DNA of 64,000 nt from an uncultured archaeon. Its GTDB lineage: Archaea > Thermoplasmatota > Poseidoniia > MGIII > CAYLMJ01. Shown here piece by piece: positions 21,853 through 36,312 of this stretch. The notes beneath the pieces were generated by a model. That model searched no databases. It saw nothing but the letters and a program-made list of their open reading frames with translations, and was not told the DNA's origin. Each line of letters starts with the position of its first letter. The stretch's first letter is position 1. The DNA is taken from NCBI GenBank assembly GCA_964384995.1, contig CAYLMJ010000011.1, forward strand, positions 4,417 to 68,416, written 5' to 3'. The position numbers were made by a program, and so were the translations under genes.

Positions 21853-22335
21853 ATGGAGACCGTCAAGATAATCCAGTTCAAACCCCAGCTCTGCAAGGAG
21901 CACCGCGACTGCGAGAGGGCCTGTTCCAAGGTCCACTTCAAGGAGGTCCGCGAAGCCGACCACTCGGCCATCCGCATCATCAAGGAGGCCAAGGCAGGCA
22001 AAGCAGGCAAGGCAGGCAAGGCGGGCGCCGGCTATCGCATGGACAACTGCAACCATTGCGGCCTGTGCATCGACATGTGCCCGGTGCTGGCCCTCAAGCG
22101 GACCCCCAAGGGCAACGTCATCCTGAACAAGAAGACCTGCGTGGGCTGCCTGTCGTGCGTGGGCTTCTGCCCCAGAGGGGTCATGCGCCTGGCCCCAGGC
22201 ACCGATGTACCGTTCAAGTGCATCTCCTGCGGCATGTGCGTCAGGGCCTGCCCCGAGGGTGCCCTGCAGCTGGCCGAGGTGGCCATCGCCGAGGTCGAGG
22301 AAGAGGTCTATTCCAGACTGGGGGTGGCCCAATGA
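21853..22335 (+). CDS. polyferredoxin (3-4 [4Fe-4S] motifs) with a (KAG)4 insertion
   Basis: CNHCGLCIDMCP, CVGCLSCVGFCP, CISCGMCVRACP plus an N-terminal CKEHRDCERAC. Insertion EAKAGKAGKAGKAGAG. Stop overlaps the next start (ATGA). Confidence 0.8.
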   Translation: METVKIIQFKPQLCKEHRDCERACSKVHFKEVREADHSAIRIIKEAKAGKAGKAGKAGAGYRMDNCNHCGLCIDMCPVLALKRTPKGNVILNKKTCVGCLSCVGFCPRGVMRLAPGTDVPFKCISCGMCVRACPEGALQLAEVAIAEVEEEVYSRLGVAQ

Positions 22336-24743
22336 CCGGAGGCGGAAGCGGAAGCGGAAGCGGAACCGGAGCCGCCGGACCAGAGGCCAGCGTGCCGGCC
22401 ACCTACCGGCCCAGGACCCTGAAGGTCCAAGGCGGCGGGTTCGAGACCGGCGATGACCGCCACGACTGGGACCTGGAGGCCCTGCGGGCCGGACACAAGG
22501 TCCTGGCCGAGCACAGGTACGACAAGAGCGAGGTGGTCCGGGGCTATTCGGGCCGGACCCTCCATATCGACCTGTCCACAAACGAGATCACGGAACGGCC
22601 GGTGAGCGAGGACATGAAGCAGAAGTTCACCGGCGGCAAGGGCTTCGGCCTGAAGCTGATGTGGGACTCCATCAAGCCCGACACCCGGTGGGACAGCGAG
22701 GAGAACGTCCTGGTGCTCAACAGCGCTCCCCTCAACGGCATCACCCAATACTCAGGCACCGGCAAGTGCCTGAGCACCACCGTGTCGCCGTCCACCGATC
22801 TGGTCTGCGACTCCAACGCCGGGGGCTACTTCGCCCCCTACCTGAAGTTCGCCGGCTTCGACGCCTTGGAGGTCCAGGGCAAGGCCGAACCTGGCACTGA
22901 TGTGGCCGTGTTCATCGACGGCAACGAGGGGGTGGTGCGCATCGAGAGCTGTCCCCTGGAGGAGACCGACGCCCACCTGGTGAGCGAGCAGCTGACCCAC
23001 CTGTACGCCGCCGCCGACACCGACGCGGCGCGTCAGAAGGTCTCGGTGGTGAGCGCCGGCAAGGGCGCCGACCACAGCTACTGGGGCTGTCTCAACATAT
23101 CATTCTACGACCAGCGGCGCAAGGTGGCCCGGCTGAAACAGCACGGCCGCGGGGGGCTGGGAGCGGTCTTCCGCAACAAGGGGCTCAAGGCCATCGTGGC
23201 CCGCATCCCGGGCTTCACCGGCACCTCCAACGATCCCTCTGATATCGACCGGCTGAACGCCATCGGGACCAAGTACCACAAGGAGATGCGGGACCTGGAC
23301 CGCCACCAATGCAACATGCGGGCGGTGGGCACCGGCAACATCGTGGAGGTGATGGACGCCTACGATCTCCTGCCCACCGAGAACTACCGCTTCGGCTCCT
23401 TCCCCAAAGCGAGCAATCTGCACTCGCCCAACTTCTACAAGCGCTTCACCCAGGTGGTGCCCGATGGCTGCTGGTACGGATGCACCATGGCCTGCTCCAA
23501 GGCCGTTGACGGCTTTGAGGTGAAGACCGGGCCCTATGCCGGCCAGAAGGTGACCGTTGATGGACCGGAGTACGAGAACTCGGCGGGTTGCGCCAACATG
23601 TCCATCTGGGACCCGGAATGGGTCATCGAGTGGAACTTCTACTGCGACACCTACGGCCTGGACACCATCTCGGTGGCCACCGGCGTGGCCTTTTACATGG
23701 AGATGTACGAGTATGGCATCCTGAACCGGGAGCGGTGTGATGGCATCGAGCTCTGCTTTGGCAACGCCGAGGGGCTGATGGAACTGCTCCACCGCATAGC
23801 GGCCGGTGATACTGGCGAGTTCGTCCAGGTGGCGGCCAAGGGGGTGCGGCGCATGAAGGACTGGCTCATCGAGAAGGGCTGGGGCGACCCCCAGCTCATC
23901 GAGGACTGCGGCATGGAGTGCAAGGGCCTGGAGTTCTCCGAGTACGTGTGCAAGGAGTCGCTGGCCCAGCAGGGCGGCTACGGCATGGCCTCCAAGGGCC
24001 CCCAGCACGACGAGGCCTGGCTCATCTTCATGGACATGGTCAACAACCAGATACCCACCTTCAAGGACAAGGCCGAGGCCCTCCACTACTTCCCCATCTG
24101 GCGCACCTGGTTCGGCATCGCCGGGCTGTGCAAACTGCCCTGGAACGACATCGTGCCCGCCGACAACGCCACCACCGAGGAGCCCGCCAAGATACCCGAG
24201 CACGTGGCCAACTACGCCGAGCTGATGACCGGGGTGACGGGCAACGCCACCGTGCCGTCGGACCTCATCGACCAGAGCGAGCGGGTCTACAACTGGCAGA
24301 GGGCCATGAACGTCTACATGGGCAAGGGCCGGCGGGCCAACGACCACATCCCGTTCAGGGCCATGGGGCCGGTGACCGAGATGGAGTACCTCTCCCGGGC
24401 CGAGCGCTACGACGGCCAGCTGGTGGAGGACCTGGGCCTGGCCGAGGCGGATGTGGAGAAGATGTCCACCCCCGAGAAGATGAAGCGCCTCCATGACCAC
24501 CGCCGGGACCGGTACCAGAAGCTGGCTGACGCGGTCTACTACCGCCGGGGCTGGACCCAGAACGGGGTGCCCACGCCCCAGAAGATGCGCCAGCTGGGAT
24601 TCGGCGACGAGACGCGGATGCTGGAGATGCTCCAGAAGGCCATCGACGAGGACGAGAAGGCGGGACTGAACGACTGGGGCGGAGACTACAGCGGCAAGCT
24701 GAAACCACCGTGCGATGAGCGTCGGTACTGGGAAAAGTGGTGA
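22332..24743 (+). CDS. divergent AOR-family oxidoreductase (803 aa, N- and C-terminal extensions)
   Basis: Start at ATG 22332 (MTGGGSGSGSGTG...). AOR N-domain GYSGRTLHIDLSTNEITERPV...GGKGFGLKLMW, GPEYENSAGCANMSIWDPEWVIEWNFYCDTYGLDTISV. The cluster motif is GCWYGCTMAC (C-x3-C-x3-C), unlike AOR1. Confidence 0.85.
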   Translation: MTGGGSGSGSGTGAAGPEASVPATYRPRTLKVQGGGFETGDDRHDWDLEALRAGHKVLAEHRYDKSEVVRGYSGRTLHIDLSTNEITERPVSEDMKQKFTGGKGFGLKLMWDSIKPDTRWDSEENVLVLNSAPLNGITQYSGTGKCLSTTVSPSTDLVCDSNAGGYFAPYLKFAGFDALEVQGKAEPGTDVAVFIDGNEGVVRIESCPLEETDAHLVSEQLTHLYAAADTDAARQKVSVVSAGKGADHSYWGCLNISFYDQRRKVARLKQHGRGGLGAVFRNKGLKAIVARIPGFTGTSNDPSDIDRLNAIGTKYHKEMRDLDRHQCNMRAVGTGNIVEVMDAYDLLPTENYRFGSFPKASNLHSPNFYKRFTQVVPDGCWYGCTMACSKAVDGFEVKTGPYAGQKVTVDGPEYENSAGCANMSIWDPEWVIEWNFYCDTYGLDTISVATGVAFYMEMYEYGILNRERCDGIELCFGNAEGLMELLHRIAAGDTGEFVQVAAKGVRRMKDWLIEKGWGDPQLIEDCGMECKGLEFSEYVCKESLAQQGGYGMASKGPQHDEAWLIFMDMVNNQIPTFKDKAEALHYFPIWRTWFGIAGLCKLPWNDIVPADNATTEEPAKIPEHVANYAELMTGVTGNATVPSDLIDQSERVYNWQRAMNVYMGKGRRANDHIPFRAMGPVTEMEYLSRAERYDGQLVEDLGLAEADVEKMSTPEKMKRLHDHRRDRYQKLADAVYYRRGWTQNGVPTPQKMRQLGFGDETRMLEMLQKAIDEDEKAGLNDWGGDYSGKLKPPCDERRYWEKW

Positions 24744-24882
24744 TGGGTCCGACCAACCTCTCTTATGCTGTCCCAACCATTATGAACCGTGACCCAAGGC
24801 CGACACCCAGCAAAGCCTGCCTCCTCCTACTTGCCTCACCTCAACCACCAAGGCTATCAAGCAGATATGGGAGGTCGATGAG

Positions 24883-25083
24883 ATGGCGATAACGGTGAAC
24901 GGCAAGGAGAGGGAACATGTGGAGGGGGAGACGGTGGCGAAGCTGTTGAAGCGGCTGAGGTTCATGTTCCCGCTGGTGGTGGTGAAGGTGAACGACCAGG
25001 TGGTGGCCAAGGAGGACTTCGGCCAGGTGGAGATCACCGAGGGTGCCAGGGTCGAGGTCATCCATCTCATCAGCGGAGGCTGA
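24883..25083 (+). CDS. ThiS/MoaD-family beta-grasp protein ending in Gly-Gly
   Basis: 66 aa: MAITVNGKEREHVEGETVAKLLKRL...VNDQVVAKEDFGQVEITEGARVEVIHLISGG. Confidence 0.7.
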   Translation: MAITVNGKEREHVEGETVAKLLKRLRFMFPLVVVKVNDQVVAKEDFGQVEITEGARVEVIHLISGG

Positions 25084-25459: not shown

Positions 25460-27439
25460 ATGCCACCGGACATGAAGTGGGACTACTCAGAGTATCCCGG
25501 AGCCAAGCTCTATCCTCACATCTTCAAGCCCATCAAGATCCGCAACCTCACCATCCCCAACCGCATCAAGTACGCCGCCACCGAGGACAACTTCAACGCC
25601 CGGGACGGCTTTGTCACCGACGCCGACGTGGCCTACATGCGGGAGCGGGCCAAGGGCGTGGTGGGCGGACTCTGCACCATCCAGGGCGTCTACATGGACG
25701 AGGGGATGGAGGGCAAGGGCTACGTGGGCATGGCCGGCGCCTGGGACGACAAGTACATCCCCGGACTCAAACGGCTCAACGACGCCATCCAGGAGCAGGG
25801 GGCCTACTCGGTCATCCAGCTCATGCACTGCGGCCGCGTGGGCGGTGTTGATGTGGGCTACTGCGTCGGCCCCACCAAGATCCAGCAGAGGCTCAGGGTC
25901 CTTGAACCCGTCCGCGAGATGAGCCACGCCGACATCAAGACCTGTGTACAACAGCACGCCGACGCCGCCCGACGGGGTGTCGAGGCCGGCTACGATGTCA
26001 TGGAGATATCGGGCATCGTGGGCTACCTGCTCTCCAACTTCCTGTCATCCTACACCAACCGGAGGACCGACGAGTACGGCGGCGACATCGAGGGTCGCTG
26101 CACCTTCATGACCGAAACGGTGGGAGCTGTGCGCGACGCCATCGGCGACATGCCCCTGGTCATCCGGCTCTGCGCCGAGGAACTGCTCAACGATGTGGGC
26201 GGCAACACCCCCGAGGAGTGCATGGTCACCTACCGCTTGGCCGAGAAGGCCGGAGTCGATGTCATGAGCGTCACCCAGGGCTGGCAGGAGTCCATCCATC
26301 CGGTCATCTCCCGGGACATCGCCATGGGCTCGTGGCTCTACAACGCCGAGCGGGCCAAGCAGAACCTCTCCATCCCGGTGGCCATGGCCTACCGCCTCTT
26401 CACCCCCGACCTCCCGAACAAGGCCATCGGCGAGGGCAAGCTGGACATCTGGGAGATGTGCCGGTCGCAGATAGCCGACGCCTACATGCCCCAGAAGGTC
26501 CTTGAGGGCAGAGAGGAGGACATCCGCCACTGCGTGGGCTGCAACCTCTGCCTGGCGCGCCTGTTCCGCAACGCCCCCATGACCTGCTTCATCAACCCCA
26601 TCTGCGCTCACGACCACCAGCCGGAGTGGCAGATAACCCCCACCGACGACGAGAAGGAGGTCATGATAGTGGGAGCCGGACCCGCCGGCCTGGAATGCGC
26701 TTGGGTGGCGGCCAAGCGGGGCCACGAGGTCACCGTCTACGACAGTACCTCCGAAGTGGGTGGCAACATCCTCTACGCCGCCAAGGGGCTCCACAACGAC
26801 AGCGAGATGCTCAAGATAGTGGCCTTCCACAAGACCCAGTGCGACAAGAACGGCGTTGAGTTCAAGCTGAACACCTCGGTCACCCCTGCGATGATGGAGG
26901 AGGAGGACCCCGACGTGGTGGTCGTGGCCACCGGCACCACCATCCCCAAACCCCAGGTTCAAGCCAGCGACAAGGTGGGCATGTTCTCAATGCACGAGTA
27001 CCTGGACGGCAAGGCCAAGGTGGGCGACACCGTGGCCGTGCTGGGCAGTCGCAAGCCCGCCATCAGCGTGGCCCTGCTCCTGGCGGCCGAGGGCAAGCGG
27101 GTCTCCCTCATCGCCGAGGAGCGCAAGCTGGGCAAGAACATCAACCCATCCCTGATCTGGCGCTACATGATGAAGCTGGGCCAGGCCCGCATCATGCGCT
27201 ACACCAACGCCAAGGTGCTGGCCATCGAGGACGACCAGGTGGTCATCGAGATGCTCCATGGCATGAAGTTCCCGGTGCCGGCCGACACGGTCATCTACAC
27301 CACCCGGGAGCCCCAGCGTGATCTGGAGAAGGCCGCCCAGGAGCTGGGGGCCGAGACCTACGTCCTGGGGGACGCCATAGTGCCTCGCAATCTTTCCCAT
27401 GCCGTCCATGACGGCTATCGCATCGGCCTGAGGTTATAG
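25460..27439 (+). CDS. OYE/FadH-type flavo-iron-sulfur reductase (2,4-dienoyl-CoA reductase / enoate reductase family: FMN barrel + [4Fe-4S] + FAD/NAD(P) domain)
   Basis: LFKPIKIRNLTIPNRIKYAATED..., HCGRVG, CVGCNLCLARLFRNAPMTC cluster motif, VMIVGAGPAGLECAWVAAKRGHEVTVYD. The start is ATG 25460 or 25403. Confidence 0.8.
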   Translation: MPPDMKWDYSEYPGAKLYPHIFKPIKIRNLTIPNRIKYAATEDNFNARDGFVTDADVAYMRERAKGVVGGLCTIQGVYMDEGMEGKGYVGMAGAWDDKYIPGLKRLNDAIQEQGAYSVIQLMHCGRVGGVDVGYCVGPTKIQQRLRVLEPVREMSHADIKTCVQQHADAARRGVEAGYDVMEISGIVGYLLSNFLSSYTNRRTDEYGGDIEGRCTFMTETVGAVRDAIGDMPLVIRLCAEELLNDVGGNTPEECMVTYRLAEKAGVDVMSVTQGWQESIHPVISRDIAMGSWLYNAERAKQNLSIPVAMAYRLFTPDLPNKAIGEGKLDIWEMCRSQIADAYMPQKVLEGREEDIRHCVGCNLCLARLFRNAPMTCFINPICAHDHQPEWQITPTDDEKEVMIVGAGPAGLECAWVAAKRGHEVTVYDSTSEVGGNILYAAKGLHNDSEMLKIVAFHKTQCDKNGVEFKLNTSVTPAMMEEEDPDVVVVATGTTIPKPQVQASDKVGMFSMHEYLDGKAKVGDTVAVLGSRKPAISVALLLAAEGKRVSLIAEERKLGKNINPSLIWRYMMKLGQARIMRYTNAKVLAIEDDQVVIEMLHGMKFPVPADTVIYTTREPQRDLEKAAQELGAETYVLGDAIVPRNLSHAVHDGYRIGLRL

Positions 27440-27453
27440 GAGGAGGTGAAAAG

Positions 27454-28077
27454 ATGCCTGTGAACCTGGAAAAAGAACTGATGACCATGTACCGCAAGTT
27501 CAACACCCTGGGCAACATCGAGCGGGCCACCTGGTACGAATGGCGCCAGGCCGCTCTGGAGTTCGCCCGAGAGGGCACCGACCCCATGGACCTGGTCCTG
27601 CGGGCCTGGGAGATCGTGGGCCACGACACCGCCAAGAGCTACTTCGGGGGCCTGGACGTGACCAAGGGGCCCAAACGCTTCGTCACCGACATCGCCCGCC
27701 GGATAGTCGCCAGCTCCATCAACATGGGCGAGGACGCCAAGGTGGTGGAGAGCGACAAGGATAACGAGGTCTACGTGCGCTGGGACCGCTGTCCCTGGCC
27801 CGACTTCGCCCGTCGCTACGACGCTCCGATGGAGGAGGACCTGCAGGGTTGCGACAAGTGGTTCATGACGGTCATCGAGGACATCAACGAGGTCTTCAAC
27901 ACCCATGTTCAGCTGGAGACCCAGGCCGCGATCCCCAGCGGCGACTGCCACTGCCTGAGGCGCATCTGGGTGGACGAGTGGCACCACACCAAGGACTACA
28001 CCCTGGTGAAGCCGGGCGAGGAGCCCACCGATGCCTCCAAAGCCAAGGCCAATGCCGGCCAGAAGAAGGAGGCCTGA
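27454..28077 (+). CDS. hypothetical protein, possibly of the L-2-amino-thiazoline-4-carboxylate (ATC) hydrolase-like family
   Basis: 207 aa. VYVRWDRCPWPDFARRYD...LQGCDKWF...ETQAAIPSGDCHCLRRIW resembles the Cys-containing pattern I recall for that family. Weak call. Confidence 0.4.
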   Translation: MPVNLEKELMTMYRKFNTLGNIERATWYEWRQAALEFAREGTDPMDLVLRAWEIVGHDTAKSYFGGLDVTKGPKRFVTDIARRIVASSINMGEDAKVVESDKDNEVYVRWDRCPWPDFARRYDAPMEEDLQGCDKWFMTVIEDINEVFNTHVQLETQAAIPSGDCHCLRRIWVDEWHHTKDYTLVKPGEEPTDASKAKANAGQKKEA

Positions 28078-28079
28078 GG

Positions 28080-28280
28080 ATGGTCATCGAGATCGATGTG
28101 GAGAAGTGCCAGATGTGCGGCGGCCTGTGCGAGCCGGTGTGCGTGGACATCTGTCCGACCTCGGCCCTGATGGTTGGCGACGGCAAGATACTGGTCACCG
28201 AGTTCCTCTGTGAGGACTGCAACGAGTGCGGCTTCGCTTGCCCGGACAAGGCCATGGAGATCGTGAAGGTCACCTGGTAG
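28080..28280 (+). CDS. small 2x[4Fe-4S] ferredoxin
   Basis: 66 aa: MVIEIDVEKCQMCGGLCEPVCVDICP...CEDCNECGFACP. AGGAGG lies 8-13 nt upstream, and ATG 28080 is 2 nt after the previous stop. Confidence 0.8.
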   Translation: MVIEIDVEKCQMCGGLCEPVCVDICPTSALMVGDGKILVTEFLCEDCNECGFACPDKAMEIVKVTW

Positions 28281-28298
28281 TTCGGGTGAACTTGTGAT

Positions 28299-28338
28299 CA
28301 CCACAGAGACACAGAGAGCACAGAGATAGCACAGAGTT
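28299..28338. repeat. CACAGAG heptamer repeat element (4 direct units), copy 1 of 3
   Basis: caccacagagacacagagagcacagagatagcacagag. Units start at 28302/28310/28319/28330 (spacing 8, 9, 11). Lies between convergent stops at 28280 and 28363. Confidence 0.85.
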
Positions 28339-30445: not shown

Positions 30446-30447
30446 GC

Positions 30448-32622
30448 TCAGCCACCTCCCCCATCGCCAGCTTCATCCCCATCCTCATCCACATCTTCAT
30501 CCTCTATCCCGTAGGCCTCGGCGTCCAGGCCCAACTTCTCGACCATGTCCTTCATGGTGGCCACGAACTTGGGACCGTCGGCCGCCGACATCCAGACGTT
30601 CCAGATGCGGTCGGTTTTGTAGCCCTTCTTCGCCAGCTTCTTCGTTAGGCGCTCGATGCGCTTTTGGCACTTGTAGTTACCGTTGATGTAATGGCAGGTG
30701 GGGAACTCACAGCCCGCCACCAACACCCCGCCGGCTCCCAGGTCCAAGGCCTGCTGGACCCAGTCGTTCTTCACCCTTCCCGAGCACATGACCCGGATGA
30801 GGCGGGCGTTGGGGGGATACTCGGCGCGGCTGACGCCGGCCAGGTCCACGGCGCCCATGGCGCACCAGTGACAGCAGAAGGCGAGTATCTTCTGCTCGGG
30901 CTCCAGGGCCAGGGCCGAGACGATCTGGGCCTCGATCTGCCGGTCGGAGTAGTGTATGATCTGGATGGCGTCGGAGGGGCACTCTGCGGCGCAGGTGCCG
31001 CAACCCTTGCACAGGGCCTCCAGGGCGTTGGGCACCTTCCGCTTGGCCGCCGGGTCCACGATCTCGATGGCGCTGTAGGGGCAGACCTTGGCGCAGAGGC
31101 CGCATTCGGAGCAGAGGTCGTGATCGATCTGGCAGATGATGCCAGGGGCCTCGATGTAGCCTCGGCGCATGGGTATGACAGCCCGCATGGCCGCCCCCAT
31201 GGCCTCCTCCATGGCCCAGCGCACGCCCTTGGGCGAACGGGCCCCGCCGCAGACATAGAGGCCGTCGCCGGCGAAGTCCAGGGGCGCCAGCTTGATGTGG
31301 GCCTCCTGGAAGTAGCCATCCTTGTCAGACGATACCTTTAGCTGGCCCTTCAGCTCCTCCACCGAGGGGTCACCGACCAGCGCCGTGGTGAGGACCGCCA
31401 GGTCCACGGGTATCTGGAGCTCCACATCCAGAAGCAGGTCCCTGGCCCGCACCATCAGACCGCCGTCATCCCCCATCACCACCTCGGGCGGGGTGTCGGG
31501 GTCATAGCGCACGAGGCGGATGTCATGGCCCTTCAGGGCCTGGCGGACGTAGTTGGCCTCCTCGCCCTGGACGTTTAGGTCGCGATAGAATACGAACACT
31601 GGAGCGGCAGGGTCCCGCTCCTTGAGGGTGATGGCGTTGCGGATGGAGGCCAGACAGCCCACGTTGCAGCAGCCCCGCTCAGCATTGCGCGAGCCGACGC
31701 AGTTGAAGATGGCCACCGCCTTTCCATCCACCTTGGAGGCCTTGGGGTCGGCCAGCATAGCCTCCAGTTGCATCTGGGTGATGACACCGGGATGAGAGCC
31801 AAAGCCGAACAGCCCCTGGGGCTCAAGCTCGCCCATGCCGGTGGCCACGATGATGGTGGAGACCTCCAGCTCGTCGCTGGAACCACCCTTGAGCTGTACC
31901 GAGTAGTTGCCGATGTAGCCGGAGATGGAGCCGGTCACCGTGTTGGTGTGGACCGTGATGTTTGTCGCGGCCTTCACCTCGGCCGCCTGGCGTTCAACCA
32001 TCTTGTGGGCCTCGATGTCGGCGGGGGCCAGCATGTGGAGTCGGTTCAGCAGGCCGCCCAGTCTCGCCTCCCGCTCCACGAGATGGACCTCGAAGCCCTG
32101 TCTCGCCACCCCCAGGGCCGCGGTCATGCCGGCGATGCCGCCGCCGAGGACCAGACAGGTCCGGCCCACCGACAGGCGTATCTCCTGGGCCGGCTCCAGC
32201 AGGCGGGCCTTGGCCACGCCCATGGCCACCAGGTCCATGGCCTTGCGGGTGGCCGCCCCGGGCCGGGAGCGATGGACCCAGGAGCTCTGCTCCCGGATGC
32301 TCACGAACTCCAGCAGGTAGGGGTTGAGGCCGGCCTCCTTCACCGCGTCCTTGAAGAGGGGTTCGTGGGTCCGGGGGGTGCACGAGGCGACGACCACCCG
32401 CTCCAGCTCGTGCTCGTTGATGAACGCCTTGATCTGGGCCAGGTAGTCGGCCGAGCAGATCCAGCGGCCCTCGTCCACGAAGACCACCCCCTCCAGGCCC
32501 TTGGCGTACTCCGCCACCGCCGGCACGTCCACGGTGCCCAGGATGTTGGAGCCGCAGTCGCAGACGAAGACGCCAACGCGGGGGTCCGGTTCATCGGCGG
32601 CCCGGTCAGCCATCGGCCTCAC
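30448..32622 (-). CDS. HdrA-like flavoprotein fused to an MvhD-like domain (QmoB-like architecture)
   Basis: N-domain VGVFVCDCGSNILGTVDV...ASCTPRTHEP, FAD fold LVLGGGIAGMTAAL, CSECGLCAKVCP and CKGCGTCAAECP. MvhD part FCCHWCAMGAVDLAG...RVMCSGRV...VAGCEFPTCHY. Confidence 0.85.
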   Translation of the reverse strand: MRPMADRAADEPDPRVGVFVCDCGSNILGTVDVPAVAEYAKGLEGVVFVDEGRWICSADYLAQIKAFINEHELERVVVASCTPRTHEPLFKDAVKEAGLNPYLLEFVSIREQSSWVHRSRPGAATRKAMDLVAMGVAKARLLEPAQEIRLSVGRTCLVLGGGIAGMTAALGVARQGFEVHLVEREARLGGLLNRLHMLAPADIEAHKMVERQAAEVKAATNITVHTNTVTGSISGYIGNYSVQLKGGSSDELEVSTIIVATGMGELEPQGLFGFGSHPGVITQMQLEAMLADPKASKVDGKAVAIFNCVGSRNAERGCCNVGCLASIRNAITLKERDPAAPVFVFYRDLNVQGEEANYVRQALKGHDIRLVRYDPDTPPEVVMGDDGGLMVRARDLLLDVELQIPVDLAVLTTALVGDPSVEELKGQLKVSSDKDGYFQEAHIKLAPLDFAGDGLYVCGGARSPKGVRWAMEEAMGAAMRAVIPMRRGYIEAPGIICQIDHDLCSECGLCAKVCPYSAIEIVDPAAKRKVPNALEALCKGCGTCAAECPSDAIQIIHYSDRQIEAQIVSALALEPEQKILAFCCHWCAMGAVDLAGVSRAEYPPNARLIRVMCSGRVKNDWVQQALDLGAGGVLVAGCEFPTCHYINGNYKCQKRIERLTKKLAKKGYKTDRIWNVWMSAADGPKFVATMKDMVEKLGLDAEAYGIEDEDVDEDGDEAGDGGGG

Positions 32623-34021
32623 CTCCCCACTCAGCCGCCCTGAGACTGGCGGCGATGGCCTGGGTCACCGATTCGGAGATGTCGATGGGACCTGTGGCCC
32701 CGCCGCAGAGGTAGATGCCCTCGACAGTGGATTCCAGGGGGGCGAAGACCGGGTCCCTCTCGGCGAAGTAGCCCCGCTCGTTCAGCTCCAGGCCCAGCCG
32801 CTTGGCCAGCCTGGCGTTGCGCTGTCCCGGCAGGAGCCCGGCGGCCAGCACCAGCAGGTCCAGCTCCAGGTCATGCAGTTCGCCGGAGTCCAGGTCCTCG
32901 TAGCGCACGGTGAGGCACTTCGTCTCCGGGTCCTGAAAGACATCCGAGGGCTTCCCCTTGAGGTACCTGACGCCATGGCCCTGGGCCCGCCTGACGAAGT
33001 CGTGAAAGCCCTTGCCGTAATCCTTGAGATTGTGATGGAAAACGTAGGCCTCCACCTCCGGGTCGTGCTCCTTGGCGATGATGGTCTGCTTGGTGGAGAA
33101 CATGCAGCAGACCTTGGAGCAGTAGGGTAGGTGACCTCCCTGATCTGCCTTCAGCTCGGCCTGGGGTACCTCGGGTAGCTCATCCTTCAGTCCCACCTCC
33201 CGGCCCACGCACTGGACCCAGCCGATGCGCTTGGGATGCTTGCCGTCGGAGAGCCGGATGATGTCGCCCTCGGTGGGCCCCCCGGCGTTCATGAGCCGCT
33301 CGAACTGCATGGTGGTCAGGACGTTGTCGTATGTGGCGTAGCCGTAGTGGTCGGCCGGGGGCTCGTAGGGTTCCACCCCGGTGGCCACGATGATGCTCTT
33401 GATCCTCAGCTTGTGACGCTTGTCCTTCTGCCACAGCAGGACCGCCTCGGCCCCCTCCTTGCGGCAGGCCACCACGCAATCGGCTATCTGGCACTCCCGG
33501 CACTGGGAGCAGTCGATGATGCAGCGGCCCACGCAGGCGCCAGCATGGTCCATGTGGCCAAAGCGGCACAGGGGGCTCACCACGTAGGTGTTGGGCACGG
33601 CCTGGGGGAAGGGGAGGCCGATGAGCTTGCGGATGCCGCCCAGCTTGCCATCCAGCTCGTCGGGCAGGGAGACCGGGCAGGCCTCGGCGCACTTGGCACA
33701 GCCCTTGCATCTGTCCTCGTCCACGAACTTGGCCTTCTCCACCACCGTGACCTTGAAGTCGCCAGCCTTGCCCTTGACCTTGCGGACGATGGAGTTGGTG
33801 AGCAGGGTGATGTTGGGATGGGTCTGCACCTCGTACATCTTGGGGGCCTCGATGCAGATGGAGCAGTCGTTGGTGGGGAAGGTCTTGTCCAGCCGGGCCA
33901 TGAGCCCGCCGATGGATGGGGTGTCGTCCAGGAGGTAGACCTGCTCGCCAAGGTCGGCCAGGTTGAGGGCGGCCTCGATTCCGGCGATGCCTCCTCCGAT
34001 GACCAGGACCCCGGCCGTCAT
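32606..34021 (-). CDS. HdrA-like flavoprotein, core only (FAD domain with inserted ferredoxin)
   Basis: VLVIGGGIAGIEAALNLA, hallmark LDKTFPTNDCSICIEAPKM, CKGCAKCAEACP, CSKVCCMFS. 17-nt overlap with the downstream HdrA/MvhD gene. Confidence 0.85.
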   Translation of the reverse strand: MTAGVLVIGGGIAGIEAALNLADLGEQVYLLDDTPSIGGLMARLDKTFPTNDCSICIEAPKMYEVQTHPNITLLTNSIVRKVKGKAGDFKVTVVEKAKFVDEDRCKGCAKCAEACPVSLPDELDGKLGGIRKLIGLPFPQAVPNTYVVSPLCRFGHMDHAGACVGRCIIDCSQCRECQIADCVVACRKEGAEAVLLWQKDKRHKLRIKSIIVATGVEPYEPPADHYGYATYDNVLTTMQFERLMNAGGPTEGDIIRLSDGKHPKRIGWVQCVGREVGLKDELPEVPQAELKADQGGHLPYCSKVCCMFSTKQTIIAKEHDPEVEAYVFHHNLKDYGKGFHDFVRRAQGHGVRYLKGKPSDVFQDPETKCLTVRYEDLDSGELHDLELDLLVLAAGLLPGQRNARLAKRLGLELNERGYFAERDPVFAPLESTVEGIYLCGGATGPIDISESVTQAIAASLRAAEWGGEADG

Positions 34022-34206: not shown

Positions 34207-36312
34207 TCAGAGTGCCACCGGCTCCTGGAACTCGCCAAAGACCTCGCGGAAGAGGGCCGAGATCTCCCCGACCGTGGCGTAGGCCTCCACCGCCTCCATG
34301 ATGGCGGGCATGAGATTCTCGTCGCTCTTGGCCGTTGCCTCCAACCGTTGTAACGCCGCGTCCACGGCGGCCTGGTCCCGACTGGCCTTGATATCCTTCA
34401 GGCGCCCGATCTGTTCCTGTGCGGCATCCGGCTCGTAATCGTGAAGCTTCACCGCCCGTTCCTGGTCTCGCTCGGCACTGCGGTACTTGTTGACCCCCAC
34501 CTTGACGAACTCCCCCGACTGGACCGCCCGCTCGTGGGCGTAGGCCTGGGCCGCCACCTGGCGCTGGAGACTGCCCTCGGCGATGGCCTGCACGATGCCG
34601 CCCCACTCCCGGACCCGCCCCATCTCCTTGATGATGCGCCCCTCCAGCTCGCTGGTCAGGGACTCGATGTAGTAGGAGCCGCCCAGGGGGTCCACGGTGT
34701 CGGCCAGGCCCATCTCCTCGATGAGGATCTGCATGGTGCGCAGGGAGACCAGGGCCGCCTCCTTGGAGGGGATGGTGTAGGCCTCGTCGTAGGAGCAGAG
34801 GGCCATGGTCTGGGTGCCCGACAGGGCGGATATGAGAGCGTAGTAGGCTCCCCGCACGATGTTGTTCAGGGGCTCCTCGATGGTGAGCCCACCCCCGCCG
34901 CCGCCGGCGATCATCTTCAGCTTCTGGGCCTTGGGATTGGCCACCCCCAGCTCGTCGCGCACCAGTTTGGCCCACAGCCGCCGCCCCGCCCTGAACTTGG
35001 CCACTTGCTCGAAGAGGTTGCCGTGGATGTCGAAGTTGAAGCTCACCTGGGAGGCGAAATGTTCGGGGTCCAGGCCCCGTCCCTCCATGCGGCGCACGTA
35101 CTCTGTGGCAATGGCGAAGGCGTAGGCCATCTCCTGCACCGGATCGGCCCCGGACTCGCGGATGTGGTAGCCGCACACCGAGACCGGGTAGTACTTGGGC
35201 ACATGGCGGGCGCAGTGCTCCCACACGTCGATGACCAGGCGGATGGAGGGTTCGACAGGATAGATCCACGTGCCGCGACCAACGAACTCCTTGAGGATGT
35301 CGTTCTGGGCGGTGCCCCGGATCTGGTCCATGGCCAGGCCCTGCTTGCGGGCCACCACCAGGTACATGGCCACCAGGATGGGGGCGGTGGAGTTGATGGT
35401 CAGCGAGGTGGAGATGCGGTCCAGGGGGATGGCGTCGAAGGCCACCTCCATGTCGGCCAGGGTGTCCACGGCCATGCCCACCCGGCCCACCTCGCCCGCG
35501 GCCCGGGGGTCGTCGGAGTCGAGCCCCATCTGGGTGGGCAGGTCGAAGGCCACGTTGAGGGCGTTCTGGCCCTCGCCGATGAGGTACTTGAAGCGCTCGT
35601 TGGTCTGGGAGGGGGTGCCGAAACCGGAGTACTGGCGCATGGTGAAGGGCCGCGCCCGGTACATCAGGTCGTGGATGCCCCTGGTGAAGGGGAAGTCGCC
35701 AGGCCGGCCCACCTCGGAATCCAGGTCCAGGTCGGCCACCTGCTCGGGGCCGTAAACCGGCAGGGGCTCGACGCCCGATTCCAGGACCACCTTCCGGGCC
35801 TGGGGCCGGCGGGGTGGGGGCGCCCCCGTTTTCTTACCTGCCGCCGGGGTCTCTTCTGCCTCCTTTGCTGGATCCTCAGGAGCCGCCACTTCCCGTCCTC
35901 CGACCCTGGCCACCGCCTCCCGCAGGCCCGCGGCGATGTCCTCCAATCGGGCGCTGGTGGGGAAGATGTCCACGACACCCAGCTCCCGGAGGGGCCCGTG
36001 GTCCCGGGCCGGGATGTTGCCACCGAAGAACACCGGGACCTCGGAGAGCCCCTCGGCGCTCATGCGCTCCCTCAGGTGCTCGGCGATGGGCAGATGGGCG
36101 CCCGAGAGGATGGAGAGCCCGATGGCGTCGACATCCTCCTCCAGGGCCGCGGCCACGATCTGGTCCACGGTCCTGTGGAGTCCGGTGTAGATGACCTCGA
36201 AGCCGGAATCGCGGAGGGCCAGGGCCACCACCTTGGCCCCCTGGTCGTGGCCGTCCAGGCCCGGTTTGGCGATGAGCACGCGGATGGGTCTTGGAGCTGT
36301 ATCGTCTGACAT
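34207..36312 (-). CDS. methylmalonyl-CoA-mutase-type B12 enzyme, single polypeptide with the B12-binding domain N-terminal to the catalytic barrel
   Basis: N-terminal IRVLIAKPGLDGHDQGAKVVA (DxHxxG), a Pro/Ala/Lys linker, then FPFTRGIHDLMYRARPFTMRQYSGFG...LNVAFDLPTQMGLDSD...NDILKEFVGRGTWIYP. Start at ATG 36312 (MSDDTAPRPIRV...). Confidence 0.85.
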   Translation of the reverse strand: MSDDTAPRPIRVLIAKPGLDGHDQGAKVVALALRDSGFEVIYTGLHRTVDQIVAAALEEDVDAIGLSILSGAHLPIAEHLRERMSAEGLSEVPVFFGGNIPARDHGPLRELGVVDIFPTSARLEDIAAGLREAVARVGGREVAAPEDPAKEAEETPAAGKKTGAPPPRRPQARKVVLESGVEPLPVYGPEQVADLDLDSEVGRPGDFPFTRGIHDLMYRARPFTMRQYSGFGTPSQTNERFKYLIGEGQNALNVAFDLPTQMGLDSDDPRAAGEVGRVGMAVDTLADMEVAFDAIPLDRISTSLTINSTAPILVAMYLVVARKQGLAMDQIRGTAQNDILKEFVGRGTWIYPVEPSIRLVIDVWEHCARHVPKYYPVSVCGYHIRESGADPVQEMAYAFAIATEYVRRMEGRGLDPEHFASQVSFNFDIHGNLFEQVAKFRAGRRLWAKLVRDELGVANPKAQKLKMIAGGGGGGLTIEEPLNNIVRGAYYALISALSGTQTMALCSYDEAYTIPSKEAALVSLRTMQILIEEMGLADTVDPLGGSYYIESLTSELEGRIIKEMGRVREWGGIVQAIAEGSLQRQVAAQAYAHERAVQSGEFVKVGVNKYRSAERDQERAVKLHDYEPDAAQEQIGRLKDIKASRDQAAVDAALQRLEATAKSDENLMPAIMEAVEAYATVGEISALFREVFGEFQEPVAL

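What the first reader, a model, noticed from the sequence alone, without database searches (positions are those of the whole stretch)
21853..36312. Convergent AOR-family/OYE-reductase operon facing a split-HdrA/MvhD/HdrD block: candidate new ferredoxin-coupled (possibly bifurcating) reductase system
+ strand, in order:
- polyferredoxin, then (ATGA overlap) an 803-aa divergent AOR-family protein. Its cluster motif is GCWYGCTMAC (C-x3-C-x3-C) instead of the C-x2-C-x3-C of AOR1, and it has extra ~70-aa N-terminal and ~60-aa C-terminal extensions.
- a ThiS-like GG protein
- an OYE/FadH-type FMN+[4Fe-4S]+FAD reductase
- an ATC-hydrolase-like protein
- a 2x[4Fe-4S] ferredoxin
- strand, converging on the same point: a B12 acyl-CoA mutase, an HdrA-like core, an HdrA-like/MvhD fusion, an HdrD-like CCG protein and a 204-aa orphan.

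Established knowledge: class II benzoyl-CoA reductase (BamB-I) combines exactly these part types, namely an AOR-family W enzyme, Fe-S, HdrD-like, HdrA-like and MvhD-like parts. The OYE/FadH family includes 2-naphthoyl-CoA reductases and clostridial enoate reductases.

Differences here: there is no NuoEFG-like (BamGHI) module, no hydrogenase, no HdrB/C and no membrane subunit. The AOR paralogue's motif also differs from BamB as I recall it.

Inference: a soluble low-potential electron-transfer or bifurcation machine. It would serve reduction of an aryl/enoyl acid or CoA ester in an amino-acid-fermenting archaeon.
Basis: partly seen in the sequence, partly recalled or inferred. Interest (0 to 1): 0.8.

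Follow-up and report, generated by a model that had tools for sequence, protein, structure and literature searches.

The report
NCR-like reductase coupled to split HdrA
The eleven genes are real, but they form two units: an ordinary tungsten-type aldehyde oxidoreductase set, and a widely conserved, apparently undescribed pairing of a naphthoyl-CoA-reductase-like flavoenzyme with its own ferredoxin and a split heterodisulfide-reductase-type electron-bifurcating module.

Summary
Observation confirmed: all listed genes exist at the stated coordinates with the stated domains. This includes the C-x3-C-x3-C motif and the terminal extensions of the 803-aa AOR paralogue.

Interpretation partly supported.

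(1) polyFd–AOR2–ThiS is a WorS–WorL–WorX set, that is, a class II tungsten oxidoreductase of catalogued but uncharacterised WOR clade 7.
- It keeps the residues typical of aldehyde oxidisers and is closer to PfAOR than to BamB.
- It lies next to an OYE or Hdr gene in 0 of 50 other species with at least 5 kb of downstream sequence.

(2) The OYE is 39.5% identical to 2-naphthoyl-CoA reductase (NCR) and lacks the NADPH-binding motif.
- With the ATC-hydrolase-like protein and the 66-aa ferredoxin it forms an invariant triplet (70/70 loci).
- The HdrA-core plus HdrA/MvhD pair lies within 10 kb in 21 of 24 well-flanked loci. This holds in archaea and bacteria and in four different gene orders.
- The third Hdr subunit is either the CCG-type HdrD or, in the probably bacterial loci, an HdrC/GltD-like NAD(P)-binding protein.

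This points to a soluble HdrA-type bifurcating or confurcating module serving an NCR-like low-potential CoA-ester reductase. The substrate and the direction of electron flow are inferred, not shown.

The B12 mutase and the 204-aa orphan are only locally conserved. A different AOR type (AOR1) does recur beside the module in a few distant genomes.

The parts
21853..22335 (+). WorS-like polyferredoxin (polyFd2), partner of AOR2
   Evidence: Fer4 families. 15 Cys and three CxxCxxCxxxC motifs. ATGA overlap with AOR2. Found upstream of AOR2 orthologues in 54 of 80 loci.
22332..24743 (+). AOR2: WorL subunit, WOR clade 7 (class II tungsten/molybdopterin oxidoreductase)
   Evidence: AFOR_N plus AFOR_C. 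Best solved match PfAOR 2e-38, BamB 2e-22. Invariant C380/C384/C388/C600 and T334/E415/Y538/H559. 67-68% identical to A0A151ELW1 on LSSH01000039, which is listed as clade 7.
24883..25083 (+). ThiS/MoaD-like GG protein (WorX)
   Evidence: PF02597 and TIGR01683. Found near AOR2 orthologues in 50 of 80 loci. Named WorX, with a presumed role in pterin maturation, in PMC13328260.
25428..25435 (+). TATA-like box TTAAATAT about 25-32 nt upstream of the OYE start codon (putative own promoter, near-leaderless transcript)
   Evidence: Read directly from the sequence. The ThiS-OYE gap is 376 nt. Promoter function is inferred.
25460..27439 (+). NCR-like Fe-S flavoenzyme (OYE/FadH family: FMN barrel, [4Fe-4S] linker, FAD domain, degenerate second dinucleotide domain)
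   Evidence: Pfam. NCR 6qkg 1e-137, 39.5% identity over 635 positions; DCR 6e-74. Y88, Y189, R236 and E332 are conserved. The NADPH GxGxxG motif is absent.
27454..28077 (+). ATC_hydrolase-like protein, invariant partner of the OYE
   Evidence: PF14196, weak hit. Present after the OYE in 70/70 loci with room. Invariant R31, G92, E105, P114-W115-P116, E128; no conserved Cys.
28080..28280 (+). 66-aa 2x[4Fe-4S] ferredoxin, third gene of the OYE operon
   Evidence: Fer4 hits. Present in 70/70 loci with room. 2-nt gap to the ATC-like gene.
28363..28977 (-). 204-aa orphan downstream of HdrD (lineage-specific)
   Evidence: No Pfam or NCBIfam hit. Found only in same-species contigs and in one relative whose HdrA/MvhD is 84% identical (L088, orphan 68% identical).
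29093..30445 (-). HdrD-like subunit (HdrC-type dicluster domain plus two HdrB-type CCG domains, with an 80-aa low-complexity insert)
   Evidence: Fer4_8 plus 2 x CCG. CCG at residues 174 and 341, with CxxC partners. PDB HdrC and HdrB hits. 370-aa orthologues follow HdrA/MvhD.
30448..32613 (-). HdrA/MvhD fusion (HdrA N-domain, TrxR-like FAD domain without the inserted ferredoxin domain, C-terminal ferredoxin domain, MvhD)
   Evidence: FlpD plus Fer4 plus Pyr_redox_2. Matches 5odc HdrA residues 3-234 and 325-656, and MvhD. HdrA2 model 630 bits.
32606..34021 (-). HdrA core (TrxR-like FAD domain plus inserted ferredoxin domain); predicted heterodimer partner of the fusion
   Evidence: Matches HdrA residues 146-562 only. 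8-nt overlap with the fusion gene. Always adjacent to the fusion in relatives.
34207..36312 (-). Fused B12-binding/acyl-CoA mutase; neighbour, not part of the conserved module
   Evidence: PF02310 plus PF01642. 185-nt gap to HdrAcore. Adjacent only in L088, the relative whose HdrA/MvhD is 84% identical. MCM-like genes occur in only 5 of the OYE loci clustered.

Best explanation
The region holds two separate functional units that happen to be neighbours in this Thermoplasmatota lineage.

Unit 1 (21853-25083) is a class II tungsten-type oxidoreductase. It consists of WorS polyferredoxin, a WorL subunit of WOR clade 7, and the ThiS-like WorX. Most likely it interconverts aldehydes and acids with ferredoxin.

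Unit 2 (25460-34021) is a conserved module.
- The catalytic part is a 2-naphthoyl-CoA-reductase-like Fe-S flavoenzyme. It cannot bind NAD(P)H and so needs an external low-potential one-electron donor.
- It is followed by an obligatory ATC-hydrolase-like partner of unknown role and a dedicated 2x[4Fe-4S] ferredoxin.
- These are paired with a soluble heterodisulfide-reductase-type machine. An HdrA heterodimer is split into a core subunit (FAD plus inserted ferredoxin domain) and a second subunit (N-domain, FAD, C-terminal ferredoxin domain, MvhD). The third subunit is HdrD with its CCG clusters.

Proposed mechanism (inferred):
- The HdrA flavin couples an exergonic electron transfer to or from the HdrD terminal with the supply of very low-potential electrons.
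- The HdrD terminal would handle a thiol/disulfide-type acceptor in the CCG-type loci. The other loci carry an HdrC/GltD-like NAD(P) subunit instead.
- The low-potential electrons pass through the operon ferredoxin to the FAD, then the [4Fe-4S] cluster, then the FMN of the OYE.
- The OYE then reduces an aromatic or conjugated unsaturated acyl-CoA.
- This is analogous to how BamDEF(GHI) is thought to drive BamBC in class II benzoyl-CoA reductase, but with a flavin enzyme (type III) instead of a tungsten enzyme.

What is shown: gene content, domain architecture, the conserved linkage, and the NCR-like residues. What is inferred: physical complex formation, the direction of electron flow, and the substrate.
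For: Linkage:
- ATC-like and Fd genes follow the OYE in 70/70 metagenome loci that have at least 1 kb downstream.
- The HdrA pair lies within 10 kb in 21/24 loci with at least 5 kb on both sides, and in 14/17 with at least 8 kb.
- The association survives four gene orders: convergent (window), divergent, Hdr followed by OYE on the same strand, and OYE followed by Hdr on the same strand with short intergenic gaps.
- Source names for relatives span Thermoplasmata, Nezhaarchaeales, Thermoprotei, Desulfatiglandales, Dehalococcoidia and Planctomycetes.
- At least nine contig lengths are shared between the top-120 lists for the OYE and for HdrA/MvhD.

OYE chemistry:
- NCR is by far the best solved match (463 bits, against 253 for FadH).
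- The NCR-specific Y82 and E341 are kept. DCR His26 is replaced by an invariant Glu42. The NADPH GxGxxG motif is absent, as in NCR.

Hdr module:
- The two HdrA-like proteins carry complementary HdrA domains.
- HdrD has both CCG motifs.
- In the other loci the third subunit is a 583-aa protein with Fer4_8, Fer4_20 and Pyr_redox_2, i.e. GltD/NfnB-like.

CoA-ester context:
- An enoyl-CoA hydratase gene ends 2 nt before the OYE in L172.
- A 4HBT thioesterase lies upstream in two relatives.
Against: - No experiment or complex prediction links the proteins. Adjacency could reflect a shared pathway rather than a shared complex.
- The association is not universal. L111, L113, L148 and L171 have the triplet without a nearby Hdr pair, and L169 has the Hdr trio without a nearby OYE.
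- Several NCR hallmark residues differ: H284 becomes Q, W459 becomes M/L, F375 becomes L, F573 becomes S. The cluster motif is CxxCxxC instead of CxxCxxxC. Substrate and redox potential may therefore differ from NCR.
- The direction of electron flow is not determined. A Bcd/Etf-like scheme with a high-potential enoyl-CoA as acceptor fits the same parts.
- The role of the ATC-like protein is unknown. The structure model has low confidence, pLDDT 66.
- I could not read the main review of HdrA modules (Appel et al. 2021), so prior description cannot be excluded.
Confidence: 0.6

Rival explanations
1. AOR2, its polyferredoxin, the OYE and the Hdr block form one BamB-I-like machine in which the divergent AOR paralogue is a catalytic, ring- or acid-reducing subunit.
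For: - The part list resembles BamBCDEF: an AOR-family protein, Fe-S protein, and HdrD-, HdrA- and MvhD-like parts.
- AOR-family genes of another clade lie beside the OYE/Hdr module in L170, the P0144 contig and L108.
- In L170 the OYE triplet lies between the AOR gene and a ThiS-like gene.
Against: - AOR2 orthologues in 80 species never have an OYE, ATC or HdrD gene within reach. The count is 0 of 50 loci with at least 5 kb downstream.
- The closest OYE relatives (71-74% identical) lack AOR2.
- AOR2 is closer to PfAOR than to BamB and keeps the residues of aldehyde oxidisers.
- There is a 376-nt gap with a TATA-like box before the OYE.
- There is no BamGHI-like module.
Confidence: 0.07
2. The same conserved OYE/Fd/Hdr module, but working like Bcd/EtfAB or caffeyl-CoA reductase.
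- A mid-potential donor delivers electron pairs to the HdrA flavin. In the variant loci that donor would be NAD(P)H entering through the GltD-like subunit.
- One electron reduces the operon ferredoxin, which is the uphill branch.
- The other electron goes downhill through the OYE to a high-potential enoyl- or dienoyl-CoA.
- The module would then be an energy-conserving generator of reduced ferredoxin rather than a driver of a difficult reduction.
For: - The OYE/FadH family includes 2,4-dienoyl-CoA reductase.
- Beta-oxidation genes flank the module: ECH, thiolase, SDR, ACAD and 3HCDH.
- The variant loci encode an NAD(P)-binding GltD-like subunit and a free small ferredoxin.
Against: - The OYE is much closer to the low-potential NCR than to DCR. 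It carries acidic residues (E332, E42) expected to lower the FMN potential.
- In the CCG-type version the third terminal is HdrD. In known Hdr systems this is an acceptor site, which leaves no obvious mid-potential donor in the cluster.
Confidence: 0.2
3. The OYE works oxidatively, like its relatives trimethylamine and histamine dehydrogenase.
- It would dehydrogenate or hydroxylate an N-heterocycle or CoA ester, for example the pyrrole ring of an indole derivative ahead of lactam hydrolysis.
- It would hand the electrons to ferredoxin and Hdr for disposal.
For: - TMADH and histamine dehydrogenase share the architecture.
- In CCG-type loci, caprolactamase-like HydA/HydB genes sit directly upstream of the OYE.
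- The window island carries a tryptophanase-family gene, IorAB, HydAB, a family III CoA-transferase, a B12 mutase and an ACAD. These recall the anaerobic indoleacetate (iaa) pathway (PMC8360864; early steps recalled from memory of Ebenau-Jehle 2012).
Against: - Similarity to NCR is far higher than to the amine dehydrogenases (463 against 165-179 bits).
- HydAB is absent from the roughly 30 co-directional VOC/GltD-type loci.
- No direct comparison with Iaa proteins was possible.
Confidence: 0.08
4. The Hdr block is an independent redox module, for example one that recycles a thiol cofactor, and merely tends to sit in the same catabolic islands as the OYE triplet. There is no electron exchange between them.
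For: - There are exceptions in both directions: L111, L113, L148, L171 and L169.
- The third subunit and the neighbouring genes vary.
Against: - Linkage is kept in 21/24 well-flanked loci, in both domains, and through four rearranged gene orders. This includes tightly spaced single-strand operons.
- The OYE lacks any built-in donor site, and the module supplies exactly the kind of donor predicted for NCR.
Confidence: 0.1

Closest known systems
2-Naphthoyl-CoA reductase (NCR, type III aryl-CoA reductase; PDB 6QKG)
   Same: [quoted passage not shown]
- 39.5% identity over 635 residues.
- The proton donor Tyr (Y197/Y189), Y82/Y88, R245/R236 and the potential-lowering E341/E332 are conserved.
- No NADPH-binding glycine motif, so an external low-potential donor is needed.
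   Different: - H284 becomes Q, W459 becomes M/L, and the Phe cluster is only partly kept.
- CxxCxxC spacing in the cluster motif, and no 122-135 insertion.
- Always followed by an ATC-like protein and a ferredoxin, and usually linked to an HdrA pair. No such partners are described for NCR in the papers I could read.
- The host is an archaeon, not a known PAH degrader.
Class II benzoyl-CoA reductase BamBCDEFGHI
   Same: It combines a catalytic reductase for a low-potential aryl-CoA with HdrD-like (BamD), HdrA-like (BamE) and MvhD-like (BamF) parts. It is thought to use flavin-based bifurcation.
   Different: - Here the conserved catalytic partner is a flavoenzyme (OYE), not the tungsten subunit.
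- AOR2 is not BamB-like.
- No NuoEFG-like BamGHI. The variant loci use a GltD-like NAD(P) subunit instead.
Methanogen MvhAGD-HdrABC, and the HdrA2 (HdrA-MvhD fusion) complexes
   Same: All HdrA domains, MvhD, the HdrC-type dicluster and the HdrB-type CCG domains are present. HdrA 5ODC matches at 1e-105 to 1e-118.
   Different: - HdrA is split into two complementary paralogues, so a heterodimer is predicted.
- HdrB and HdrC are fused as HdrD.
- There is no hydrogenase, formate dehydrogenase or methanogenesis context in the window.
QmoAB (with HdrCB) of sulfate reducers (comparison from memory)
   Same: Two adjacent HdrA paralogues. The second is larger and carries a C-terminal MvhD domain. An HdrC/B-type protein follows.
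   Different: There is no membrane QmoC (no transmembrane segment), and the scans of the window genes showed no apr or sat genes. Not tested with Qmo-specific models.
Class II WOR (WorLS with WorX), WOR clade 7 (Schut 2021; Putumbaka 2026, PMC13328260)
   Same: AOR2 with its polyferredoxin and ThiS-like gene fits the definition. An orthologue is listed in clade 7.
   Different: No clade 7 enzyme has been characterised. AOR2 has the unusual C-x3-C-x3-C spacing and conserved terminal extensions.

Membership tests
Class II benzoyl-CoA reductase (BamB-type W subunit with BamC-I) | The catalytic AOR-family subunit groups with BamB rather than with the aldehyde oxidoreductases | tested here: not met
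   AOR2 scores 135 bits against PfAOR and 82 bits against BamB 4z3w, which ranks last of nine solved AOR-family hits. T334/E415/Y538/H559 match the residues of aldehyde oxidisers.
Class II benzoyl-CoA reductase (BamB-type W subunit with BamC-I) | The AOR-family gene is conserved in one cluster with HdrD-, HdrA- and MvhD-like genes | tested here: not met
   0 of 50 AOR2-orthologue loci with at least 5 kb downstream carry an OYE, ATC or HdrD gene. One locus has an unrelated HdrA gene 5 kb upstream.
Class II benzoyl-CoA reductase (BamB-type W subunit with BamC-I) | NuoEFG-like BamGHI NAD-binding module | tested here: not met
   No such domains were found in the 50 window proteins scanned.
Class II WOR (WorLS +/- WorX), clade 7 | WorL with AFOR_N and AFOR_C domains, four cluster Cys and the pterin/catalytic residues | tested here: met
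   Pfam 1.7e-43 and 2.1e-85. C380/C384/C388/C600 and T334/E415/Y538/H559 are invariant in 20 homologues.
Class II WOR (WorLS +/- WorX), clade 7 | Adjacent WorS polyferredoxin and ThiS-like WorX; no FAD subunit or bifurcating WorABC in the operon | tested here: met
   polyFd overlaps AOR2 by 4 nt and ThiS lies 139 nt downstream. The pattern is conserved in 54 and 50 of 80 loci respectively. WorS has 15 rather than 16 Cys.
Class II WOR (WorLS +/- WorX), clade 7 | Clade assignment in the published 92-clade tree | tested here: met
   By orthology only. L012 is contig LSSH01000039, whose first gene is 67-68% identical to AOR2. The supplement lists A0A151ELW1 on that contig, as its first gene, with CladeID 7.
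Class II WOR (WorLS +/- WorX), clade 7 | Tungsten content and aldehyde:ferredoxin activity | not testable with these tools
   Needs purified protein.
Type III aryl-CoA reductase (NCR-like OYE) | Three-domain Fe-S flavoenzyme architecture with a four-Cys [4Fe-4S] linker | tested here: met
   Aligned to 6qkg residues 13-669. C358/C361/C364/C376 are invariant, but the spacing is CxxCxxC rather than CxxCxxxC.
Type III aryl-CoA reductase (NCR-like OYE) | [quoted passage not shown] | tested here: inconclusive
   The GxGxxG motif of DCR (GCGGIG) is replaced by GSRKPA in the window protein (GGKKPG in the family consensus), as in NCR (GGNEIS). The blocking W459 is M/L here. Dependence on a particular donor cannot be shown from sequence.
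Type III aryl-CoA reductase (NCR-like OYE) | NCR active-site set Y197, Y82, H284, R245, E341 | tested here: inconclusive
   Four of five are conserved (Y189, Y88, R236, E332). H284 is an invariant Gln276.
Type III aryl-CoA reductase (NCR-like OYE) | Dearomatising activity on an aryl-CoA | not testable with these tools
   Needs enzyme assays.
HdrA-type flavin-based electron-bifurcating complex | Full set of HdrA domains (N-domain, FAD/TrxR domain, inserted and C-terminal ferredoxin domains) plus MvhD | tested here: met
   Present, but split over two proteins. The fusion covers 5odc residues 3-234 and 325-656 plus MvhD. The core covers residues 146-562.
HdrA-type flavin-based electron-bifurcating complex | HdrC-type dicluster and HdrB-type double CCG domains | tested here: met
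   Fer4_8 plus two CCG stretches, with CCG at residues 174 and 341 and CxxC partners.
HdrA-type flavin-based electron-bifurcating complex | Associated donor enzyme (hydrogenase, formate dehydrogenase or an F420-dependent unit) | tested here: not met
   None was found among the window genes scanned. In the variant loci a GltD-like NAD(P) subunit is encoded instead of HdrD.
HdrA-type flavin-based electron-bifurcating complex | Demonstrated bifurcation | not testable with these tools
   Needs coupled redox assays.

The most novel reading that the evidence does not exclude
The OYE/ATC/ferredoxin plus split-HdrA module could be a fourth, tungsten-free and ATP-independent way of reducing aromatic rings. 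In this reading a type III (flavin) aryl-CoA reductase is driven below the ferredoxin potential by an HdrA-type bifurcating module. It would be widespread in sediment archaea and bacteria. In this archaeon it would act on a monocyclic or heterocyclic aryl-CoA derived from tryptophan or indoleacetate breakdown, for example 2-aminobenzoyl-CoA. This would also identify the long-sought class of physiological donor for NCR-type enzymes.
Probability: 0.12. Interest if true: 0.9.

Novelty: new variant of a known kind. Interest (0 to 1): 0.62.

Why it matters
- The physiological electron donor of type III (OYE-type) aryl-CoA reductases is an acknowledged open question. [quoted passage not shown]
- Here a large NCR-like subfamily comes with its own ferredoxin and an HdrA-type module. 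At least 575 metagenome contigs matched it, from both domains. That makes the donor question directly testable.
- It would also add a new catalytic partner (a flavoenzyme) and a new subunit layout to the short list of HdrA-based bifurcating systems. The layout is a heterodimeric split HdrA, with HdrD and a GltD-like subunit as alternatives.
- It marks a possible low-potential reductive step in the carbon metabolism of abundant uncultured sediment archaea (Thermoplasmatota, Nezhaarchaeales) and bacteria (Desulfatiglandales, Dehalococcoidia).
- The AOR2 part matters less. It adds a well-conserved archaeal example to WOR clade 7, which is abundant but uncharacterised.

Tried and rejected
- AOR2 as a BamB analogue: rejected.
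- The B12 mutase and the 204-aa orphan as module members: rejected. They are conserved only in the closest relatives.
- A metal cluster in the ATC-like protein: rejected. Its Cys are not conserved.
- A profile search of the ATC-like family against PDB sequences found nothing.
The single-sequence model has pLDDT 66 and gives only weak Bet3/H-NOX/V4R-type fold hits with TM 0.3-0.4. I treat this as a lead only.
- Literature searches for OYE, dienoyl-CoA reductase or aryl-CoA reductase together with HdrA or MvhD found no description of this cluster.
- Two papers could not be read: Appel et al. 2021 on HdrA modules and Ebenau-Jehle et al. 2012 on the iaa pathway. The iaa comparison therefore rests on PMC8360864 plus memory.
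- NCBIfam has no Iaa-specific models that matched. HydAB matches caprolactamase best, below its cutoff.
- A first tblastn filter (at least 40-50% coverage) missed the GltD-type third subunit. It was found by ORF calling plus Pfam.
- Some 'HdrC_GltD' tblastn hits fall inside the OYE's own FAD domain. These are artefacts and were ignored.

Full report
**1. What is in the sequence**

The window has 56-68% G+C, and true genes show GC3 of about 0.75-0.9.

On the + strand:
- polyferredoxin 21853-22335
- AOR2 22332-24743, with an ATGA overlap to the polyferredoxin
- ThiS-like 24883-25083
- OYE/FadH-type flavoenzyme 25460-27439
- ATC_hydrolase-like 27454-28077
- 66-aa ferredoxin 28080-28280

On the - strand, converging on the same point:
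- 204-aa orphan 28363-28977
- HdrD-like 29093-30445
- HdrA/MvhD fusion 30448-32613
- HdrA core 32606-34021
- fused B12-binding/acyl-CoA mutase 34207-36312

Intergenic distances:
- The OYE, ATC-like and ferredoxin genes are tightly spaced (14 and 2 nt).
- HdrAcore, HdrA/MvhD and HdrD are tightly spaced (-8 and 2 nt).
- ThiS is separated from the OYE by 376 nt. That gap holds a TTAAATAT box about 25-32 nt before the start codon.
- The mutase is separated from HdrAcore by 185 nt.

No protein has a transmembrane-like segment.

The AOR2 motif C380-WYG-C384-TMA-C388 is confirmed, as is the canonical CPSCPNRC of the second AOR in the window, AOR1 at 13767-15770 on the - strand.

The same arrangement occurs on a public 110.6-kb contig and on several shorter contigs from other samples. 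It is therefore not an assembly artefact.

Source names of the closest homologues, together with archaeal marker genes in the window, place the organism in the Thermoplasmatota.

**2. The AOR2 unit**

- AOR2 matches all solved AOR-family structures only distantly. PfAOR is best at 2e-38. BamB is worst of nine at 2e-22.
- From the printed alignment, the four cluster cysteines correspond to C380/C384/C388/C600.
- The four residues cited as typical of aldehyde-oxidising WORs are T243, E313, Y427 and H448 in PfAOR. They correspond to T334, E415, Y538 and H559, all invariant in 20 homologues.
- The family is large. At least 579 species-level genome loci matched. Identities are 63-75% in Thermoplasmatota and 54-59% in many bacteria.
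- In those loci the polyferredoxin (54/80) and the ThiS-like gene (50/80) are the only recurring neighbours.
- None of the 50 loci with at least 5 kb downstream has an OYE, ATC-like, HdrD or mutase gene. Only one has an HdrA gene, and it is unrelated.
- Two relatives 74% identical to AOR2 show unrelated genes downstream.

In the 2026 WOR classification, WorL plus a polyferredoxin WorS defines class II. The ThiS-like gene is 'WorX', thought to act in pterin maturation. The supplement of that paper lists the orthologue on contig LSSH01000039 as clade 7. That contig is my locus L012, and its protein is 67-68% identical to AOR2. Clade 7 is abundant, contains class I and class II enzymes, and has no characterised member.

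AOR2 is therefore a new member of a catalogued but unstudied clade, not a BamB analogue.

**3. The OYE unit**

The nearest solved relative of the OYE is 2-naphthoyl-CoA reductase (6QKG): 1e-137, 463 bits, 39.5% identity over 635 positions. This is well ahead of E. coli 2,4-dienoyl-CoA reductase at 253 bits and the amine dehydrogenases at 165-179 bits.

I compared the alignment with the NCR paper.

Residues kept:
- the proton-donating Tyr (Y197/Y189)
- its NCR-specific partner Y82/Y88
- R245/R236
- E341/E332, the acidic residue that lowers the FMN potential and is absent from DCR

Further points that fit a low-potential enzyme:
- DCR's positively charged His26 is an invariant Glu42 in this family.
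- The NADPH-binding GxGxxG of DCR is absent, as in NCR.

Differences from NCR:
- H284 becomes Gln276.
- W459 becomes Met/Leu.
- The Phe cluster is only partly kept.
- The cluster motif has CxxCxxC spacing.
- The NCR 122-135 insertion is missing.

So this is an NCR-like but distinct subfamily that needs an external low-potential donor. NCR's own physiological donor is unknown. [quoted passage not shown]

**4. The conserved linkage**

I scanned metagenome contigs with an alignment of the OYE subfamily. At least 575 contigs encode relatives, and 80 loci 54-63% identical were analysed.

- tblastn with the window proteins shows that the ATC-like gene and the small ferredoxin follow the OYE in 70/70 loci with at least 1 kb downstream.
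- The HdrAcore plus HdrA/MvhD pair lies within 10 kb in 21/24 loci with at least 5 kb on both sides, and in 14/17 with at least 8 kb.

Context look-ups from the Hdr side and from the OYE side give the same picture in four different gene orders:
- Convergent: the window, plus a relative whose HdrA/MvhD is 72% identical and has no AOR, a 154-kb contig, and a MAG labelled Planctomycetes.
- Divergent: Nezhaarchaeales (also L109).
- Hdr followed by OYE on one strand: a Thermoplasmata chromosome.
- OYE followed by Hdr on one strand: L172 and about 30 further loci.

At least nine contig lengths are shared between the two top-120 homologue lists.

Exceptions exist. L111, L113, L148 and L171 have the triplet without a nearby Hdr pair. 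L169 has the Hdr trio without a nearby OYE.

The third Hdr gene varies:
- a CCG-type HdrD of about 370 aa in the window-like loci, most of them from named archaea
- a split CCG protein plus an Fe-S protein in L172
- a 583-aa protein in the co-directional loci, which are probably bacterial. It has an HdrC-like dicluster domain fused to Fer4_20 and Pyr_redox_2, that is, a GltD/NfnB-like NAD(P)-binding module. In those loci a VOC/glyoxalase-family gene is also embedded in the operon and a TetR regulator lies upstream.

**5. Anatomy of the Hdr block**

- Against HdrA of the methanogen complex (5ODC), the fusion protein covers residues 3-234 and 325-656 and then MvhD. It therefore lacks the inserted ferredoxin domain.
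- The core protein covers residues 146-562. This is the FAD domain with the inserted ferredoxin domain, but without the N-terminal and C-terminal domains.
- The two are complementary, so they probably form a heterodimer in place of the HdrA homodimer. From memory, this layout resembles QmoA/QmoB.
- HdrD has an HdrC-type dicluster domain and two complete CCG motifs.

**6. Mechanism**

Shown:
- an NCR-like enzyme without an NAD(P)H motif
- a dedicated ferredoxin
- a complete set of HdrA, MvhD and HdrBC-type cofactor domains
- their conserved linkage

Inferred: they exchange electrons.

My preferred reading has these steps:
- The HdrA flavin couples an exergonic branch to the delivery of very low-potential electrons.
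- The exergonic branch runs through HdrD, or through the NAD(P) subunit in the variant loci.
- The low-potential electrons reach the OYE through the ferredoxin.
- The OYE then reduces a conjugated or aromatic acyl-CoA.
- This is the logic proposed for class II benzoyl-CoA reductase, but with a flavin catalyst.

A CoA-ester substrate is supported by three observations. An enoyl-CoA hydratase gene ends 2 nt before the OYE in L172. Thioesterase genes lie upstream in two relatives. Beta-oxidation genes flank the module.

The main rival uses the same parts in the Bcd/Etf manner. A mid-potential donor would reduce ferredoxin at the expense of a high-potential enoyl-CoA. I cannot decide between these two from sequence.

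An oxidative, TMADH-like role is a further minority possibility.

**7. Wider context**

The window is a catabolic island. It carries:
- family III CoA-transferase 12210-13427
- AOR1 with its own polyferredoxin 13767-16270, on the - strand
- PadH-like flavoprotein 16438-17847
- IorAB 17844-20689
- aminotransferase 40252-41484
- 3-hydroxyacyl-CoA dehydrogenase 41435-42397
- acyl-CoA dehydrogenase 42342-43484
- caprolactamase-like HydA/HydB 45143-49081
- a tryptophanase-family lyase 49168-50571

The same families surround the OYE/Hdr module in the 154-kb contig.
- There, HydB and HydA are co-directional with the OYE and lie directly upstream of it.
- An AOR with polyferredoxin, ThiS and a CoA-transferase lies directly upstream of HdrAcore.

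In L170 an AOR 60% identical to the window's AOR1 (not to AOR2) lies directly upstream of the OYE.

So tungsten oxidoreductases of the AOR1 type recur near the module in about 4 of 11 CCG-type loci with enough context. This is a rough count, and the background expectation rests on memory. It suggests a link at the level of the pathway.

The combination of a lactamase/hydantoinase-like enzyme, a family III CoA-transferase, a B12 mutase and an acyl-CoA dehydrogenase recalls the anaerobic indoleacetate (iaa) pathway (PMC8360864; the early steps are from memory). I could not test this directly.

**8. Novelty**

Searches of the open literature found no description of an OYE- or NCR-type enzyme linked to HdrA.

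- The AOR2 part is a new member of a known kind.
- The OYE/Hdr module is a new variant of known kinds, namely HdrA-based bifurcating systems and type III aryl-CoA reductases.

**9. Verdict**

- Observation: confirmed.
- Interpretation: partly supported. It is right about the OYE-Hdr coupling and its low-potential character. It is wrong about AOR2 as a BamB-like component and about the mutase and the orphan.
- Interest is moderate to high. The module is widespread and conserved, and it bears on the open question of the electron donor for NCR-type enzymes.

Noticed in passing
window 13767-17847 (AOR1 13767-15770 -, polyFd1 15767-16270 -, flavoprotein 16438-17847 +): The window holds a second AOR-family enzyme. 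It has the canonical CxxCxxxC motif, its own Fer4_11-type polyferredoxin and a divergently transcribed PadH-like pyridine-nucleotide-disulfide oxidoreductase, so the set looks like a class III WOR. Its orthologue (60% identical) lies directly upstream of the OYE-ATC-Fd triplet in L170. A similar set precedes HdrAcore in the 154-kb contig.
   Followed up: partly
window 12210-13427, 17844-20689, 34207-36312, 40252-50571: The window looks like a catabolic island for aromatic amino acids. It has a tryptophanase-family lyase, IorAB, an aminotransferase, caprolactamase-like HydA/HydB, a family III CoA-transferase, a B12 acyl-CoA mutase, an ACAD and a 3HCDH. The set recalls the anaerobic indoleacetate (iaa) pathway, and the same families flank the OYE/Hdr module in other contigs.
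   Followed up: partly
L114-L162 (e.g. L137:9144-18848): A variant of the module, probably bacterial, forms a single-strand operon: TetR, OYE, ATC-like, Fd, a VOC/glyoxalase-family protein (methylmalonyl-CoA-epimerase-like), HdrAcore, HdrA/MvhD, and a 583-aa fusion of an HdrC-like dicluster with a GltD/NfnB-like NAD(P) module that takes the place of HdrD.
   Followed up: partly
window 27454-28077: The ATC_hydrolase-like partner has no conserved cysteines. It has invariant R31, G92, E105, P114-W115-P116 and E128. A low-confidence AF2 model (pLDDT 66) weakly resembles the Bet3/H-NOX/V4R small-ligand-binding fold.
   Followed up: partly
window 25200-25335 and 28302-28336: There are imperfect purine-rich repeats, (AAGCAAAGC)n with a 19-nt period, in the ThiS-OYE spacer. 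There is a (CACAGAGAG)n repeat in the 82-nt convergent spacer between the ferredoxin and the orphan gene.
   Followed up: no
window 21981-22026, 22337-22370, 29093-30445, 30448-30510: Several proteins carry lineage-specific low-complexity inserts. polyFd2 has KAGKAGKAGKAG. AOR2 has an N-terminal GSGSGSG. HdrD has an insert of about 80 aa rich in Pro, Ser and Ala (450 aa against about 370 aa in relatives). HdrA/MvhD has an acidic tail rich in Asp, Glu and Gly.
   Followed up: no
window 34207-36312: The acyl-CoA mutase has its B12-binding domain at the N-terminus, ahead of the catalytic domain. This is the reverse of the order in canonical methylmalonyl-CoA mutase. It scores below the equivalog cutoff (583 against 876 bits).
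   Followed up: no
L081:7289-9485, L082:218-2354, L083:7619-9544: In the relatives 74% identical to AOR2, three conserved small genes of about 160, 245 and 250 aa precede the polyferredoxin. One has a faint Oxidored_molyb hit. They are absent upstream of AOR2 in the window.
   Followed up: no
L169:5800-13155: A Methanomassiliicoccales MAG carries the HdrAcore, HdrA/MvhD and HdrD trio without a nearby OYE. The trio is preceded there by another HdrA-like protein (578 aa) and a FlpD/Fer4 protein (333 aa).
   Followed up: no
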